Shown in pieces: positions 52,491 to 64,000 of a stretch of 64,000 nt of DNA; positions within the stretch are counted from its first letter, which is position 1; each line of letters opens with the position of its first letter. The notes beneath the pieces are model-generated. The model was not told the DNA's origin. It saw only the letters and a list, made by a program, of their open reading frames with translations, and made no database searches. Both the position numbers and the translations under genes were made by a program. The stretch lies in the NCBI RefSeq assembly GCF_009914755.1, contig NC_060943.1, one strand, 5' to 3'. Origin of the DNA: the human T2T-CHM13v2.0 reference genome, Homo sapiens.

Positions 52491-54396
52491 AAAATGGTGA
52501 ATAGAAGAATAATTGAATAACTGCCTCAGACATTTATACAGTTCTCATCTCATTCTGGGCACACGGAAGATCATGTTGGCCTCATCTCCTTGATTTTAAA
52601 AACAGTATTCTAAAATCAAGGAGACTAGATGTATCACTTCTAGGCCAAATCATGAAGGAAAATGTGTAAGAGTTTCATGTGCTCTTCATCTCTGTGATCA
52701 GAATTGAAGAAGGCATGAGTTTGAGATGCTGCATCACCAAGATCGTGGTGATTCCATTATCATTACCCTTGTAACTTGTGAGCATCCTTACTGCCAGCAA
52801 TCATTATTAGATATCAAATTTGAGATAGGAGTTCATATTTACTGTATGAATATCTCGGTCTGGGAGTGGTGGCTCATGCCTGTAATCCCAGTGCTTTGGG
52901 AGGCAGAGGAAGGAGGCTCACTTGAGCCCAAGAGTTTGAGACCACCCAGGACAACACAGGGAGACCCCATCTCTACAAAAAATGTAAAAATCAGCCAAGT
53001 GTGGTGGTAGGTGCCTGCAGTCCCAGCAATTTGGGAGGCTGATGTGGGAGGATCCCTTGAGCCTGGGATGTCAAGGCTGCAGAGAGCCGAGATCATGCCA
53101 CTGAACTTCAGCCTGGGCAACAGAGCAAGACTCTCTCTCAAATACAAAACGCTTTTTCCTTTAGGCTTAAATTCTAACCCTCAAACCTCCAATGTGAAGG
53201 TATTAGGAGGTGGGGCCCTTGGGAGATGATGAGGTTGTGAAAGTGGAACCCTCGTAAATGGGATTAGTGCCCTTCTGAAAGTGGCAGAAGAGAGCTCGCC
53301 AACACCTTCCATGTGAGGAGACAGGGAAGATATGACAGTCTCCAACCTGGAAGAGGGTCCTCACCAGACCCTGATCATGCTGGCACCCTCATCTTGGAAT
53401 TCCAGCCTCCAGAACAGTGATAAACAAATGTCTGTTCTTAAAAAAAAAAAACTGTGGAAAGCAATGTTAATGTTCCCAATCACTTTTGGTACATTCTTTC
53501 CTTAACTATGTCTTAATGCATAGTTGTGTTGGATGGCCTACTTTGTAATGTTAGAATATGCATGTTAGTGAATTAACAAATACAGCAGTAAAGAATGCTC
53601 TTCGGGTTGGGAATGGTGGCTCACGCCTGTAATCCCAGCACATTGGAAGGCCAAGGTAGGCAGATAACCTGAAGTCGAGAGTTCGAGATCTGCCTGATCA
53701 AGAGAAATCCGACTCTACTAAAAATACAAATCAGCCTGTCACAGTGTCGCATGCCTTTAATCCCAGCTACTGGGGAGGCTGAGGCAGGAGAATCACTTGA
53801 ACCTAGGAGGCAGAGGTTGTGGTGAGCCAAGATCACACCATTGCACTCCAGCCTGGGCAACAAAAGCCAAACTCTATCTCAAAAAAGAAAAAAAAAAAAA
53901 AAAAGAAATGCTGTTTGTTGACCATTTGAATGGCTAGTCTTGGTGCTTCCTGGTGGGTGAGGAGAGCCCTGCCCCATTCCTACCCATTCAAGTAGACATG
54001 GCATAAGAGTGATTCTCACTTTCTCCTATAGCCTCCTTATCCATTGGCTGAAAAGATTGTTTTTTAACGTGTCTTATAAATGCTTCCATAGCAAAAAAAA
54101 TGAATTGACTTTTATAGTGACTCTTTCGGGGATTGTTACCCATAATTCCATAATTTGTTTGAACTCCTAAAAAAGGGAAGTATGCCGAGCACAATGGAGA
54201 TTTCGTCTCAAAAATAAATAAATAAATAAATAAATAAATAAATAAATAAATAGAAAAGAAAGAAAAGGAAGTAAAGGGAAATATACAAATATACAAGGTG
54301 TTATGAGAGAGTTGCTAATTGTGATTCCCTCTTAATTGTCCAAAGAGACCACCTCTGGGGATCTATTCCTAAAAGACTCGTTAGAAGTGCAGACTC

Positions 54397-56168
54397 GCTC
54401 TCTCCCTCTCCCTCTCCCTCTCCCGTCTCCCCACAGTCTCCCTCTCCCTCTCTTTCCATGGTCTCCCTCTGATGCCGAGCCGAAGCTGGACTGTACTGCT
54501 GCCATCTCGGCTCACTGCAACCTCCCTGCCTGATTCTCCTGCCTCAGCCTGCGGAGTGCCTGCGACTGCAGGAGCGCGCTGCCACGCCTGACTGGTTTTC
54601 GTATTTTTTTGGTGGAAATGGGGTTTTGCTGTGTTGGCCGGGCTGGTCTCCAGCTCCTAACCGCGAGTGATCCGCCAGCCTCGCCTCCCGAGGTGCCCGG
54701 ATTGCAGACGGAGTCTTGTTCACTCAGTGCTCAATGGCGCCCAGGCTGGAGTGCAGTGGTGTGATCTCAGCTTGCTACAACCTCCACCTCCCAGCTGCCA
54801 GCCTTGGCCTCCCAAAGTGCCGAGATTGCAGCCTCTGCCTGGCCGCCACCCCGTCTGGAAAGTGAGGAGCGTCTCTGCCTGGCCGCCCATCGTCTGGGAT
54901 GTGAGGAGCCCCTCTGCCCGGCCGTCCAGTCTGGAAAGTGAGGAGCGTCTCTGCCCGGCCGCCATCCCATCTAGGAAGTGAGGAGCGTCTCTGCCAGGCC
55001 GCCCATCCTCTGAGATGTGGGGAGCGCCTCTGCCCCGCCGCCCCGTCTGGGATGTGAGGAGCGCCTCTGCCCGGCTGCCCCGTCTGAGAAGTGAGGAGCC
55101 CCTCTGCCTGGCAGCCGCCCCGTCTGAGAAGGGAGGAGCCCCTCCACCCGGCAGCCACCCCGTCTGGGAAGTGAGGAGCATCTCCGCCTGGCAGCCGCCC
55201 CGTTCGGGAGGGAGGTGGGGGCGTCAGCCCCCCGCCCGGCCAGCCGCCCCATCCGGGAGGGAGGTGGGGGGGTCAGCCCCCCGCCCGGCCAGCCGCCCCG
55301 TCCAGGAGGGAGGTGGGGGGGCCAGCCCCCCGCCCGGCCAGCTGCCCCGTCTGGGAGGGAGGTGGGGGGTGAGACCCCCGCCCGGCCAGCCGCCCTGTCC
55401 AGGAGGGAGGTGGGGGGTCAGACCCCCGCCCGGCCAGCCGCCCCATCCGGGAGGGAGGTGGGGGGGTCAGCCCCCCGCCCGGCCAGCCGCCCCGTCCGGG
55501 AGGGAGGTGGGGGGGTCAGCCCCCTGCCCGGCCAGCCGCCCCGTCCGGGAGGGAGGTGGGGGGGTCAGCCCCCGCCCGGCCAGCCACCCCATCCGGGAGG
55601 TGAGGGGCGCCTCTACCCGGCCAGCCGCCCCGTCTGGGAGGTGTACCCAACAGCTCATTGAGAACGGGCCATGATGACAATGGTGGTTTTGTGGAATAGA
55701 AAAGGGGGAAAGGTGGGGAAAAGATTGAGAAACCGGATGGTTGCTGTGTCTGTGTAGAAAGAAGTAGACTTGGGAGACTTTTCATTTTGTTCTGTACTAA
55801 GAAAAATTATTCTGCCTTGGGATCCTGTTGATCTATGACCTTACCCCCAACCCTGTGCTCTCTGAAACATGTGCTGTGTCCACTCAGGGTTAAATGGATT
55901 AAGGGCGGTGCAAGATGTGCTTTGTTAAACAGATGCTTGAAGGCAACATGCTCCTTAAGAGTCATCACCACTCCCTAATCTCAAGTACCCAGGGAAACAA
56001 ACACTGTGGAAGGCTGCAGGGTCCTCTGCCTAGGAAAACTAGAGACCTTTGTTCACTTGTGTATCTGCTGACCTTACCTCCACTATTGTCCTATGACCCT
56101 GCCAAATCCCCCTCTGCGAGAAACACCCAAGAATGATCAATAAAAATAAAAATAAAAAAATAAAAAAA
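54397..56168 (+). mobile_element. SVA retrotransposon (full structure)
   Basis: (CCCTCT)n hexamer, antisense Alu-like region, GC-rich VNTR (~54830-55640), SINE-R, AATAAA and poly(A). TSD AGAAGTGCAGACTC (54383-54396) / AGAAGGGCAGACTC (56169-56182). The empty site is visible at 63629-63642. Confidence 0.97.
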
Positions 56169-61740: not shown

Positions 61741-64000
61741 GTGTAAAAGAAAAATTGGTGAATAGAAGAATAATTGAATAACTGCCTGAGTCACTTATAC
61801 ATTTCTCATCTCACTCTGGGGACACAGAAGACCGTGTTGTACTCATCTCCTCGATTTTAAAAACAGTCATTCTAAAATCAAGGATTCTAGATGTATCACT
61901 TCTAGGCGAAATCTTGAAAGAAAATGTGTAAGAGTTTCATGTGCTCTTCATCTCTATGATAACAATTGAAGAAGGCAGGAGGTTGAGATGCTGCATCGCC
62001 AAGATCGTGGTGATTCCATTATCATTACCCTTGTAACTTGTGAGCATCCTTACTGCCAGCAATCATTATTAGATATGGAATCTGATATAGGAGTTCATAT
62101 TTACTGTATGAATATCTTGGTGTGGGAGTGTTGGCTCATGCCTGTAATCCCAGTGCTTTGGGAGGCAGAGGCAGGAGGCTCGCTTGAACCCAGGAGTTCG
62201 AGACAAGCCGGAAGAGCATGGCGAGACCCTCGTCTCTACAAAAATGTAAAAATCAGCCAAGTGTGCTGGTAGGTGCCTGTAGTCTCAGCTCCTTAGGAGG
62301 CTGAAGTGTTAGGATCGCTTTCGCCCGGGATGTAATGGCTACAGGGAGTCGAGATCTTGCCACTGAACTTCAGCCTGGGCAACAGAGCAAGACTCTCTCT
62401 CAAAAATAAAATGCTTTTTCCTTTAGGCTTAAATTCTAACACTCAAACCTCCAAAGCGGAGGTATTAGGAGGTGGGGCCCTTGGGAGATGATGAGATTAT
62501 GAAAGTGGAACCCTCGTAAATGGGATTAGTGCCCTTCTGAAAGTGACGGAAGAGAGCTCGCCAGCACCTTCCATGTGGGGAGACAGGGAGGATATGACAG
62601 TCTCCAACCTGGAAGAGGGTCCTCACCAGACCCCGATCATGCTGGCACTCTCATCGTGGACTTCCGGCCTCCAGAACTCTGATCAACAAATGTGTGTTCT
62701 TAAAGAAAAAAAAAGTGTGGAAAGCAATGTTAATGTTCCCAATCACTTTGAGTACATTCTTTCCTTAACTATGTCTTAATGCATAGTTGTGTTGGATGGC
62801 CTAGTTTGTAATGTTAGAATATGCATGTTAGTGAATTAATAAATACAGCAGTAAAGAATAGAGTTGTGGTTGGGAATGGTGTCTCACGCCTGTAATCCCA
62901 GCACAATGGCATGCCGAGGCGGGTCAATCACCTGTAGTCGGGAGGTGGAGATCACCCTGACCAACATGGAGAAACCCGACTCTACTAAAAATACAAATCA
63001 GCCTGTCATAGAGGCACATGCCTTTAATCCCAGCTACTCGGGAGGCTGAGGCAGGAGAATCACTTGAACCTAGGAGGCAGAGGTTGCGGTGAGCCGAGAT
63101 CGCGCCATTGCACTCCAGCCTGGGCAACAAAAGCTAAATTCTATATCAAAAAATTAAAAAAAAAAAAAAGAAGGCTGTTTGTTGACCATTTGAGTGGCCA
63201 GTCTTGGTGCTTCCTGGTGGGCGAGGAGAGCCCTGCCCCATTCCTACCCATTCCAGTAGTCATGGCATAAGAGTGATTCTCACTTTCTGCTATAGCCTCC
63301 TTATCCATTGGCTGAAATGATTCTTTTTTAATGTGTCTTATAAATGCGTCCATAGCAAAAAAAATTGAATTGACTTTTATAGGGACTCTTTCGGGGATTG
63401 TTACCCATCATTCTATAATTTGTTTGTACTCCTAGAAAAGGGAAGTATGCCGAGCACAGTGGATATTTCGTCTCAAATAATAAATAAATAACCAAATAGA
63501 AAAGAAAGAAAAGGAAGTAAAGGGAAATATACAAATATACAAGGTGTTAGGAGAGAGTTGCTAATCGTGATTCCCCCTTAATTGTCCAAACAGACCACCT
63601 CTGGGGATCTATTCGTAAAAGACTCGTTAGAAGTGCAGACTCATGCATTTGAGAATCACTCAGGGAAATCTGAAGATGACCTGTGGTGGGGGTGTAAATG
63701 GATACTTAAATGTGTCTTGTGATTGTGTGAGAGTGTGACTGTGTGTTTGTGTGTGTGCTGTCATCTGTGGAGTGGGGGATCCTCTTTTGCCTTGAGAAAG
63801 CTCATCTCTGTCCACTTACTCTGGGCTCTACCATCTGTGCCTTGTATCCAGTAGAAATAAAACAGTTTGCGGCAGAAATGGAGTTTTATTTTATTTTACT
63901 TTACTTTTTATTAGGATTATTTGTAGACCGGGTCTCACTCTGTCACTCAGGCTGGAGTGCAACGGCACGATCTCAGATCACTGCAACCTGTGCCTCCTGC

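What the first reader, a model, noticed from the sequence alone, without database searches (positions are those of the whole stretch)
52493..64000. Macrosatellite copy number would equal gene dosage
Seen: a period of 7460 bp, with the gene, its upstream region and its poly(A) site all inside one period. Recalled, to be verified: a ~7.5-kb VNTR next to ZNF558 varies in length among humans and between human and chimpanzee, and has been linked to ZNF558 silencing. Inference: the architecture parallels D4Z4/DUX4, RS447/USP17L, TAF11L, PRR20 and FAM90A arrays. VNTR phenotypes could therefore also act through dosage or de-repression of the encoded gene.
Basis: partly seen in the sequence, partly recalled or inferred. 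Interest (0 to 1): 0.82.

Follow-up and report, generated by a model that had tools for sequence, protein, structure and literature searches.

The report
ZNF558 repeat array carries PRR23-like gene
The large variable repeat next to ZNF558, treated in the papers I could read as non-coding DNA, is a head-to-tail array in which nearly every 7.5-kb unit holds a complete, unannotated four-exon gene of the PRR23 family, so repeat number is also gene copy number, though whether the gene is still used in humans is not shown.

Summary
In T2T-CHM13 the 7.46-kb repeat runs for 22 units (chr19:8,736,169-8,900,133), plus a diverged partial edge unit in the window that an SVA insertion splits off. This is the known ZNF558 VNTR, also called MSat12.

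Each unit carries a minus-strand, four-exon, 278-codon gene of the PRR23/DUF2476 family. RefSeq annotates nothing there.

- A processed retrocopy on chrX lacks exactly the three predicted introns, which confirms the exon structure.
- 21 of 22 units keep the ATG, all six splice dinucleotides and the full frame. Unit 5 has a 1-bp deletion.
- Colinear proteins are annotated in siamang, marmoset, loris, bat and horse.

Copy number therefore equals template number. Expression dosage is not shown. The array is reported as H3K9me3-marked, and the reported VNTR transcript lies on the opposite strand. Variation among units has no power to show present constraint.

Verdict: a new member of a known kind (gene-bearing macrosatellite).

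The parts
52480..54382 (.). Diverged partial edge unit ('unit 0'). It is 90.1% identical to unit positions 5572-7460 and marks the proximal end of the array.
   Evidence: blastn. Direct repeats spaced about 9,262 bp apart. It is continuous with unit 1 once the SVA is discounted.
54396..56170 (+). SVA-type retrotransposon inserted inside array sequence. It has hexamer repeats, an Alu-like part, a 48-49-bp GC-rich VNTR at 55135-55669, a SINE-R-like part, an AATAAA and an A-tail, and is flanked by a target-site duplication of about 13 bp.
   Evidence: Sequence read. The 48-49-bp repeat family is D1. The stretch is masked as repeat. The SVA label comes from recalled element anatomy; no repeat library was available.
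56169..63628 (.). Unit 1 of the array (7,460 bp). The phase is arbitrary and was set by the SVA junction.
63629..64000 (.). First 372 bp of unit 2. The array goes on for 22 units in all, to chr19:8,900,133.
60569..60723 (-). Exon 1. The 5' UTR is at least 78 nt (60723-60646). The ATG is at 60645-60643 and the coding part is 60645-60569 (77 nt), followed by a GT donor.
   Evidence: tblastn with the marmoset, loris, bat and horse proteins. Sequence. Retrocopy colinearity. ATG context identical in 22 of 22 units.
59420..59484 (-). Exon 2 (65 nt, coding), with an AG acceptor and a GT donor.
59114..59181 (-). Exon 3 (68 nt, coding), with an AG acceptor and a GT donor.
57354..58877 (-). Exon 4. The coding part is 58877-58251 (627 nt including the stop) and holds the DUF2476 match. 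The 3' UTR runs to about 57354, where homology with the retrocopy ends.
   Evidence: Pfam PF10630, E = 5.4e-23, 82.9 bits against a cut-off of 27..
57132..57137 (-). First AATAAA on the gene strand after the stop codon, 217 bp beyond the retrocopy-defined 3' end.
   Evidence: Present in 22 of 22 units.
60905..60925 (-). CCAAT-containing stretch about 190 bp upstream of the retrocopy-defined 5' end, offered as a candidate promoter element. The region is CpG-poor and there is no CpG island.
   Evidence: Sequence. Identical in 21 of 22 units. CpG observed/expected 0.2-0.5. The promoter role is inferred.
58736..58755 (+). Target of the published CRISPRi guide VNTR-g3. It lies inside the exon 4 coding sequence.
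   Evidence: Guide taken from the preprint's text, mapped.
60353..60372 (+). Target of the published CRISPRi guide VNTR-g1. It lies in intron 1, about 200 bp 3' of exon 1.
63239..63258 (-). Target of the published CRISPRi guide VNTR-g2. It lies in the spacer between genes.

Best explanation
The ZNF558 VNTR (MSat12) is a tandem amplification of a whole gene. Each 7.46-kb unit carries one complete four-exon transcription unit on the minus strand, the same orientation as ZNF558. It encodes a 278-residue protein of the PRR23/DUF2476 family that RefSeq does not annotate.

Shown:
- the array;
- the exon structure, with introns confirmed by a processed retrocopy on chrX;
- 21 of 22 CHM13 copies intact;
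- colinear annotated proteins in other primates and in bat and horse;
- every copy of the gene found in CHM13 lies in this array, apart from the old retrocopy.

Inferred:
- The gene was kept open by selection for most of its history.
- It is probably still coding in humans.
- It is probably expressed only in germline or early-embryo cells, as reported for its paralogues PRR23A-C.
- It is silent under the H3K9me3 that covers the array in neural progenitors.

On this reading, repeat number sets the number of gene templates. Expressed dose depends on the chromatin state of the array and need not rise with copy number.
For: - Array: 22 units, of which units 2-21 are 99.05-99.32% identical to unit 1.
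- Family: PF10630 matches above the cut-off in 22 of 22 units. The genome-wide search gave 29 matches: 22 in the array, 3 on chr3 (PRR23A, B and C), 3 on chr8 (PRR23D1, PRR23D2 and a PRR23D1-like gene) and 1 on chrX.
- Gene model: proteins of marmoset, loris, bat and horse map to four colinear blocks with GT/AG borders.
- Retrocopy: chrX:126468829-126470661 joins those four blocks with the introns absent. Only 5 gap columns fall in the 837 coding columns.
- Integrity: ATG, three GT donors, three AG acceptors and the full frame are present in 21 of 22 units.
- Orthology: the chr19 protein groups with siamang, marmoset and loris (support 97/96). It is only 38-39% identical to human PRR23D1/D2 and 30-33% identical to PRR23A-C.
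- Long-term constraint, from gene against retrocopy: coding K = 0.198 against 3'-UTR K = 0.279; dN 0.177, dS 0.275, ratio 0.64; Fisher p = 0.025.
- A rough neutral simulation, scaled on the 3' UTR, gives about 2e-4 for keeping the ATG, the frame, no stop codon and all six splice dinucleotides on one lineage.
- Exon 4 plus the 3' UTR occurs in CHM13 only in the 22 units and the chrX retrocopy: 23 matches of 23 candidates.
- Paralogue expression: PRR23A/B/C are reported as testis- and spermatogonia-specific (PMC7436996, passages).
Against: - RefSeq lists no gene, transcript or functional element in chr19:8,728,000-8,917,000.
- The protein search returned no named human or great-ape protein. It found 5 hits among 27 scored candidates, and 266 unnamed candidates were left out before scoring.
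- The only VNTR transcript reported in the passages I read is a lncRNA antisense to ZNF558, which is the opposite strand to this gene. The array carries H3K9me3 in human and chimpanzee progenitors.
- Variation among the 21 intact copies is 3 non-synonymous changes and 1 synonymous change, plus 1 frameshifted unit. That is what neutrality would also give, so present-day constraint is not shown.
- The low-diversity trough covers introns as well as coding sequence: 4 of 837 coding columns vary against 14 of 1,565 intron columns.
- The last unit's intact gene reflects an edge gradient of divergence, not selection.
- No AATAAA or ATTAAA lies at the retrocopy-defined 3' end.
- There is no CpG island at the 5' end.
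- There is no young retrocopy.
- The retrocopy has no in-frame stop in 274 usable codons, which the simulation gives about 3% of the time under neutrality. It may not have been neutral throughout, so the 0.64 ratio cannot be cleanly assigned to the chr19 lineage.
- The protein evolves fast: 87% identity to siamang.
Confidence: 0.55

Rival explanations
1. Relic passenger. The gene worked in ancestors but is no longer expressed or needed in humans. The array acts only in cis on ZNF558, as published, through heterochromatin size and/or the + strand lncRNA or an enhancer. The copies look intact only because the units were homogenised recently from an intact founder.
For: - The published model and data are H3K9me3 over the VNTR, CRISPRi of the VNTR lowering ZNF558, and an inverse correlation between copy number and ZNF558 expression.
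- No RefSeq model and no named human or great-ape protein.
- Variation among units is 3 non-synonymous, 1 synonymous and 1 frameshift.
- Units in the gene region differ at only 4.8-8.9 sites per kb. A recent shared origin alone explains 21 of 22 intact copies.
- No canonical poly(A) hexamer at the old 3' end.
Against: - The reading frame, ATG and all six splice dinucleotides survived a span in which the retrocopy collected two frameshifts.
- Colinear orthologues are annotated in five other mammals.
- No copy exists outside the array, so any remaining function must sit here.
- None of this excludes a loss of function within the last few million years.
Confidence: 0.35
2. D4Z4-like de-repression. 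On short (human-type) arrays the embedded gene escapes silencing in somatic or neural cells. Its protein, and not only ZNF558, would then contribute to the phenotypes tied to the VNTR.
For: [quoted passage not shown]
- Two of its three CRISPRi guides hit the gene itself: exon 4, and intron 1 near exon 1. That experiment therefore cannot separate silencing of this gene from silencing of the array.
Against: - The transcript that was followed up is on the opposite strand.
- A cis effect on ZNF558, 17 kb from the array end, is the simpler reading.
- No sense-strand expression data were within reach.
Confidence: 0.08
3. No gene at all: a chance open frame in a non-coding repeat.
For: Only the lack of annotation.
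Against: - Pfam E = 5.4e-23.
- Four exons with canonical borders.
- A processed retrocopy that lacks the introns.
- Orthologous proteins at 49-87% identity.
Confidence: 0.01

Closest known systems
ZNF558 VNTR / MSat12 (preprint 10.1101/2020.08.18.255562; PMC4063668)
   Same: It is the same locus. The unit length is 7,460 bp, the array lies downstream of ZNF558, and CHM13's 22 units per haplotype fit the reported human mean of 24-43 diploid copies.
   Different: In the passages I read, both papers treat it as a non-coding repeat. 'Open reading' occurs 0 times in the preprint and 'PRR23' 0 times in PMC4063668. No paper in the searchable library holds both ZNF558 and PRR23. Here each unit is shown to hold a complete PRR23-family gene.
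Multi-exon cancer/testis gene arrays such as CT47 (Xq24) and GAGE (Xp11.23) (recalled, not checked here)
   Same: Head-to-tail units of several kb, each with a complete spliced gene and its own promoter and poly(A) signal. The paralogues of this gene are reported as testis-restricted.
   Different: Expression of the chr19 gene is unknown. The array is autosomal, and it is already known for a cis effect on a neighbouring gene.
D4Z4 / DUX4 (recalled)
   Same: A macrosatellite with one open reading frame per unit, heterochromatic in somatic cells, whose repeat length changes local chromatin. The preprint itself draws the comparison with the FSHD locus.
   Different: As recalled, DUX4 has no intron in its coding region, and only the last unit gains a poly(A) signal on permissive haplotypes. 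Here the gene has three introns, and 22 of 22 units carry an AATAAA. No toxicity or disease link is known.
PRR23 family genes (PRR23A/B/C on chr3, PRR23D1/D2 on chr8, PRR23E)
   Same: The DUF2476 domain, the conserved N-terminal and C-terminal motifs, and a family habit of local duplication.
   Different: Only 38-39% identical to PRR23D1/D2 and 30-33% to PRR23A-C over the exon 4 part. It is a separate old lineage, with its own orthologues from primates to bat and horse. It is present as about 22 copies per haplotype, rather than the handful of annotated copies of the other subfamilies.

Membership tests
PRR23 / DUF2476 (Pfam PF10630) protein family | Match to the family profile above Pfam's gathering score | tested here: met
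   82.9 bits against a cut-off of 27, E = 5.4e-23, profile positions 60-259 of 259. 22 of 22 units are over the cut-off.
PRR23 / DUF2476 (Pfam PF10630) protein family | Shared N-terminal and C-terminal motifs and colinearity with annotated members | tested here: met
   Alignment A1 of 10 sequences has 17 invariant columns, including the C-terminal R-P and L-F positions. Exon 1 matches the N-termini of the marmoset, loris, bat and horse proteins.
Gene-bearing macrosatellite (D4Z4/DUX4, RS447/USP17L, CT47, GAGE, TAF11L, PRR20, FAM90A type) | Head-to-tail tandem units of several kb with high identity between units | tested here: met
   22 units of about 7.46 kb, all in the same orientation, 97.0-99.3% identical to unit 1.
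Gene-bearing macrosatellite (D4Z4/DUX4, RS447/USP17L, CT47, GAGE, TAF11L, PRR20, FAM90A type) | A complete gene or open reading frame in each unit | tested here: met
   21 of 22 units are intact. Unit 5 is frameshifted.
Gene-bearing macrosatellite (D4Z4/DUX4, RS447/USP17L, CT47, GAGE, TAF11L, PRR20, FAM90A type) | Copy number varies among people | not testable with these tools
   Only one haplotype was in reach. The papers report variation among humans and apes (passages).
Gene-bearing macrosatellite (D4Z4/DUX4, RS447/USP17L, CT47, GAGE, TAF11L, PRR20, FAM90A type) | The embedded gene is transcribed and translated | not testable with these tools
   No expression data were in reach. The one reported VNTR transcript is on the other strand. 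An old retrocopy shows transcription of a spliced mRNA in heritable (germline or early-embryo) cells of a distant ancestor only.
D4Z4-type contraction-dependent de-repression | A shorter array loses heterochromatin and the embedded gene is switched on | not testable with these tools
   The preprint reports VNTR transcription in human but not chimpanzee progenitors, without assigning it to this gene.
D4Z4-type contraction-dependent de-repression | Only the distal unit has a usable poly(A) signal (recalled feature of DUX4) | tested here: not met
   AATAAA at the same position in 22 of 22 units.
Processed pseudogene (the chrX copy) | Colinear with the spliced mRNA, with introns precisely absent | tested here: met
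   Four blocks are contiguous on chrX. The coding part has indels of 3, 1 and 1 bp. No clear A-tail is left.

The most novel reading that the evidence does not exclude
The human-versus-African-ape difference at the ZNF558 VNTR (a mean of 24-43 diploid units in humans against more than 70) would also be a difference of more than two-fold in the copy number of an intact, unannotated, fast-evolving PRR23-family protein-coding gene that exists nowhere else in the genome. That gene would be expressed in germline or early-embryo cells, or in neural progenitors when the short array is only partly silenced. Part of what has been credited to the VNTR acting through ZNF558 would then be mediated by this protein. 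The published CRISPRi guides hit the gene itself, so that experiment could not tell the two apart.
Probability: 0.15. Interest if true: 0.85.

Novelty: new member of a known kind. Interest (0 to 1): 0.62.

Why it matters
The ZNF558 VNTR is presented in the preprint I read as a non-coding structural variant that shapes human brain gene regulation. If each unit is a working gene, three things follow.

1. Humans carry about 20 copies per haplotype of a protein-coding gene that is missing from RefSeq.
2. The human/chimpanzee contrast at this locus is also a gene-dosage contrast.
3. Perturbations aimed at 'the VNTR' also hit this gene.

It also adds an old, separate lineage to the uncharacterised PRR23 family.

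If the gene proves dead in humans, the locus is still a clear case of a macrosatellite that arose by amplifying a whole gene.

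Tried and rejected
- **Whole-unit genome search.** It was not scored because there were too many candidates. I replaced it with a 1.5-kb repeat-free query.
- **First exon coordinates.** They were off by 1-7 bases and gave a wrong frame. I corrected them from the sequence.
- **Diversity trough as evidence of selection.** Rejected. It spans introns as well as exons, and the last unit's pattern is an edge gradient.
- **Non-synonymous/synonymous ratio among units.** There are only 4 substitutions, so it has no power.
- **dN/dS against other species.** Not possible, because only proteins of other species were in reach, not DNA. 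PRR23D1 is too distant for the purpose (38-39% identity).
- **Fold.** The AlphaFold2 model of the exon 4 protein, built from a 10-row alignment, has mean pLDDT 56.4 and pTM 0.51. It shows a beta-rich part (residues about 8-91 and 131-138, pLDDT about 64-83 by 10-residue block), and about half of the chain is below pLDDT 50. Foldseek against the PDB gave 0 of 435 listed matches at E <= 0.001, so the fold gives no functional lead.
- **RNA families.** Rfam found none in 52000-64000.
- **CTCF.** The recalled consensus has no site in the unit: 1 match in the window, at 13900.
- **DUX4.** The recalled motif has 4 matches in the window against 0.77 expected, with one about 1.3 kb upstream of the gene. 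I judged this too weak to use.
- **Literature on function.** The searches for PRR23 (64 papers, 30 listed), PRR23D (21) and DUF2476/PF10630/Prr23a (20, 15 listed) turned up, in their listings, no study of what the protein does.
- **What I could not see.** I did not see the journal version of the ZNF558 paper. The macrosatellite tables of PMC4063668 and the preprint's supplementary figure with the lncRNA primers may bear on gene content and on the transcript's strand.
- **Tree.** It used 12 rows, trimmed to the exon 4-equivalent part. The chrX retrocopy was left out because its frame is broken.
- **First hand-in.** The report was returned because one schema field (a confidence value) was missing.

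Full report

Within the window, the 7,450-7,460-bp spacing appears only for 56169-56452 against 63629-63902, because the window ends 372 bp into the second unit. I fetched chr19:8730001-8930000 of the same assembly and ran blastn with window 56169-63628.

The search gave 22 head-to-tail units from chr19:8,736,169 to 8,900,133:
- Units 1-21 are 7,452-7,472 bp long.
- Units 2-21 are 99.05-99.32% identical to unit 1.
- Unit 22 covers 7,294 of 7,460 positions at 96.99%.

It is the diverged edge unit. An SVA-type element (about 54396-56170, + strand) sits between it and unit 1, with a target-site duplication of about 13 bp. Across an intact unit junction the same flanking sequence is continuous.

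Distally, unit 22 diverges step by step over its last 1.7 kb. An inverted 90%-identical partial copy follows at chr19:8901811-8903530. ZNF558 begins 17 kb past the array.

**2. What is in the unit?**

RefSeq lists no gene, transcript or functional element between chr19:8,728,000 and 8,917,000. About 85% of the unit is not masked as repeat.

A 200-codon ATG frame at 58251-58853 on the minus strand matches Pfam DUF2476 (PF10630) at E = 5.4e-23, covering profile positions 60-259. A genome-wide search with that family gave 29 matches:
- 22 in the array, one per unit;
- 3 on chr3, at PRR23A, B and C;
- 3 on chr8, at PRR23D1, PRR23D2 and a PRR23D1-like gene;
- 1 unannotated site on chrX.

A protein search returned 5 named hits among 27 scored candidates; 266 unnamed candidates were left out before scoring. 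All 5 are called 'proline-rich protein 23D1-like':

| Species | Identity to the human frame | Length |
|---|---|---|
| siamang | 87% | 216 aa |
| marmoset | 68% | 267 aa |
| slow loris | 56% | 279 aa |
| horseshoe bat | 52% | 275 aa |
| horse | 49% | 288 aa |

No human or great-ape protein appeared.

**3. Gene model**

The longer proteins map by tblastn to four colinear minus-strand blocks. Reading the sequence shows canonical borders.

| Exon | Coding part (window, minus strand) | Length |
|---|---|---|
| 1 | 60645-60569 | 77 nt |
| 2 | 59484-59420 | 65 nt |
| 3 | 59181-59114 | 68 nt |
| 4 | 58877-58251 | 627 nt, including the stop |

Together these make 837 nt, or 278 codons plus the stop. 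My first coordinates were a few bases off.

Independent proof of the introns comes from chrX:126468829-126470661. That sequence is colinear with window 60723-60571, 59487-59417, 59185-59113 and 58886-57354, with the three introns absent. A global alignment of the spliced sequence to it has only 5 gap columns in the coding part.

This retrocopy also sets the old mRNA ends: 5' at or beyond 60723, and 3' near 57354.

- **Poly(A) signal.** There is no AATAAA or ATTAAA between the stop and 57150. The first AATAAA is at 57137, and it is present in 22 of 22 units.
- **5' end.** It is CpG-poor (observed/expected 0.2-0.5, no island). A CCAAT-containing stretch lies about 190 bp upstream.

**4. Integrity of each copy**

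From a MAFFT alignment of the 22 units, 21 of 22 have the ATG, three GT donors, three AG acceptors and an uninterrupted 278-codon frame. Unit 5 (chr19:8766021-8773476) has a 1-bp deletion that brings a stop at codon 124. There are 5 distinct proteins, present in 13, 6, 1, 1 and 1 units.

Among the 21 intact copies there are 4 coding substitutions: 3 non-synonymous (two singletons and one shared by 6 units) and 1 synonymous.

Variable columns per kb, leaving out unit 22, are 4.8 in coding sequence, 8.9 in introns and 23.9 elsewhere. The trough includes the introns, so it does not single out the coding sequence. This within-array evidence cannot separate selection from recent homogenisation of an intact founder.

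**5. Long-term history**

On a maximum-likelihood tree of 12 rows trimmed to the exon 4 part (retrocopy left out), the chr19 protein groups with siamang, marmoset and loris (support 97/96). Bat and horse fall outside that group, in an unresolved position. Human PRR23D1/D2 form a separate long branch. Identity to chr19 is 38-39% for PRR23D1/D2 and 30-33% for PRR23A-C. The chr19 gene is therefore the human representative of an old, separate PRR23 lineage.

Gene against retrocopy:
- Coding K = 0.198, 3'-UTR K = 0.279, dN 0.177, dS 0.275, ratio 0.64.
- Fisher p = 0.025 on 98 of 621 non-synonymous against 46 of 201 synonymous sites.

A rough simulation used the 3'-UTR distance and indel rate as the neutral yardstick. 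It gives about 2e-4 for one lineage keeping the ATG, the frame, no stop and all six splice dinucleotides.

One result cuts against a clean reading. The retrocopy has no in-frame stop in 274 usable codons, which the simulation gives about 3% of the time. It may have been constrained for a while, so the 0.64 cannot simply be assigned to the chr19 lineage.

From recalled neutral rates, a distance of 0.28 puts the retroposition tens of millions of years back. It therefore says nothing about expression today. There is no younger retrocopy: exon 4 plus the 3' UTR occurs only in the 22 units and on chrX. Matches in closed regions would not be shown.

**6. What is known about the locus**

*Preprint 10.1101/2020.08.18.255562 (passages only).*
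- It describes a VNTR with a 7,460-bp unit downstream of ZNF558 (hg38 chr19:8735220-8794192).
- Humans have a mean of 24-43 diploid copies. Chimpanzee, bonobo and gorilla have more than 70, and orangutan about 36.
- RNA-seq signal within the VNTR is seen in human but not chimpanzee progenitors.
- A lncRNA starts in the VNTR, runs antisense to ZNF558 and extends towards it.
- Three-guide CRISPRi of the VNTR lowers ZNF558 and raises SPATA18.

ZNF558 is on the minus strand at higher coordinates. That lncRNA is therefore on the + strand, antisense to the gene described here.

The three guides map as follows:
- VNTR-g3 to exon 4 coding sequence (58736-58755);
- VNTR-g1 to intron 1, about 200 bp from exon 1 (60353-60372);
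- VNTR-g2 to the spacer (63239-63258).

The experiment therefore also targeted this gene.

*PMC4063668 (passages).* It calls the repeat MSat12 and reports an inverse correlation with ZNF558 expression in lymphoblastoid lines (R = -0.46).

*Is the gene content in print?* 'Open reading' occurs 0 times in the preprint and 'PRR23' 0 times in PMC4063668. No paper in the library holds both ZNF558 and PRR23. Only PMC4063668 holds both ZNF558 and macrosatellite. This negative rests on those searches. It excludes the journal version of the ZNF558 paper and all supplements, which I could not see.

**7. The protein**

The family alignment (10 rows) has 17 invariant columns. They include a hydrophobic N-terminal core, a Pro/Ser-Pro-rich stretch, and a C-terminal basic run that ends in Leu-Phe.

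The AlphaFold2 model has mean pLDDT 56.4. It shows a beta-rich part (residues about 8-91 and 131-138, pLDDT about 64-83 by 10-residue block), and about half of the chain is below pLDDT 50. Foldseek against the PDB found nothing at E <= 0.001 (0 of 435 listed).

From recalled motif knowledge, the C-terminal motif resembles a cyclin-docking RxL site next to Ser-Pro phosphorylation sites. I did not test this.

[quoted passage not shown] PRR23B rises in KLF17-reporter-positive naive cells (preprint 10.64898/2026.10.23.761375, one passage). The listings of my PRR23 and DUF2476 literature searches showed no study of the family's function.

**8. Verdict**

The structure is shown with high confidence. 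The VNTR is a tandem array of a complete PRR23-family gene. Repeat number equals gene template number: 21 intact of 22 in CHM13.

Reported heterochromatin, and the inverse relation between length and local expression, argue against a simple proportional dose.

I rate the gene-array reading with probable germline-restricted function at 0.55. I rate the relic-passenger reading at 0.35, somatic de-repression at 0.08 and a chance frame at 0.01.

Noticed in passing
G000 chrX:126468829-126470661 (loci L027, L028), minus strand: An unannotated processed retrocopy of the chr19 array gene, 77-92% identical block by block. Its coding part has indels of 3, 1 and 1 bp but no in-frame stop in 274 usable codons, so it may have been a working retrogene for a time.
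   Followed up: partly
window 54396-56170, + strand: An SVA-type element inserted inside array sequence, with a target-site duplication of about 13 bp. It separates the diverged edge unit from unit 1 and explains the 9,262-bp spacing of repeats in the window. The SVA label comes from recalled anatomy.
   Followed up: partly
chr19:8901811-8903530 (loci L019/L010 region) and the last 1.7 kb of unit 22: The distal edge of the array shows a gradient of divergence. It is followed by an inverted, 90%-identical partial copy of unit positions 5572-7294. The same unit segment also forms the proximal edge unit.
   Followed up: no
G000 chr8:7256555-7262014, 11924541-11930114 and 12465092-12470866: PRR23D1, PRR23D2 and a PRR23D1-like gene lie beside FAM90A array genes in 8p23.1. 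Another branch of this family therefore also sits in a copy-number-variable repeat region.
   Followed up: no
window 58251-58290 (C-terminus of the protein), alignment A1: An invariant C-terminal basic run ending in Leu-Phe, preceded by a Pro-Pro-Ser-Pro-Ser-Pro stretch, is shared across PRR23A-D and the chr19 lineage. It resembles a cyclin-docking motif with CDK sites (recalled, untested).
   Followed up: no
window 62011-62021, minus strand (also 52749-52759 in the edge unit): One exact match to a recalled DUX4-type motif about 1.3 kb upstream of the gene's 5' end. There are 4 matches in the window against 0.77 expected by shuffling. This is weak.
   Followed up: partly
units 4, 6, 11, 12, 17 and 22, and units 1, 4, 6, 18-21 of the array: Two coding variants (one Pro/Thr change, one synonymous) are shared by scattered, non-adjacent units. 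That hints at a higher-order pattern or at gene conversion within the array.
   Followed up: no
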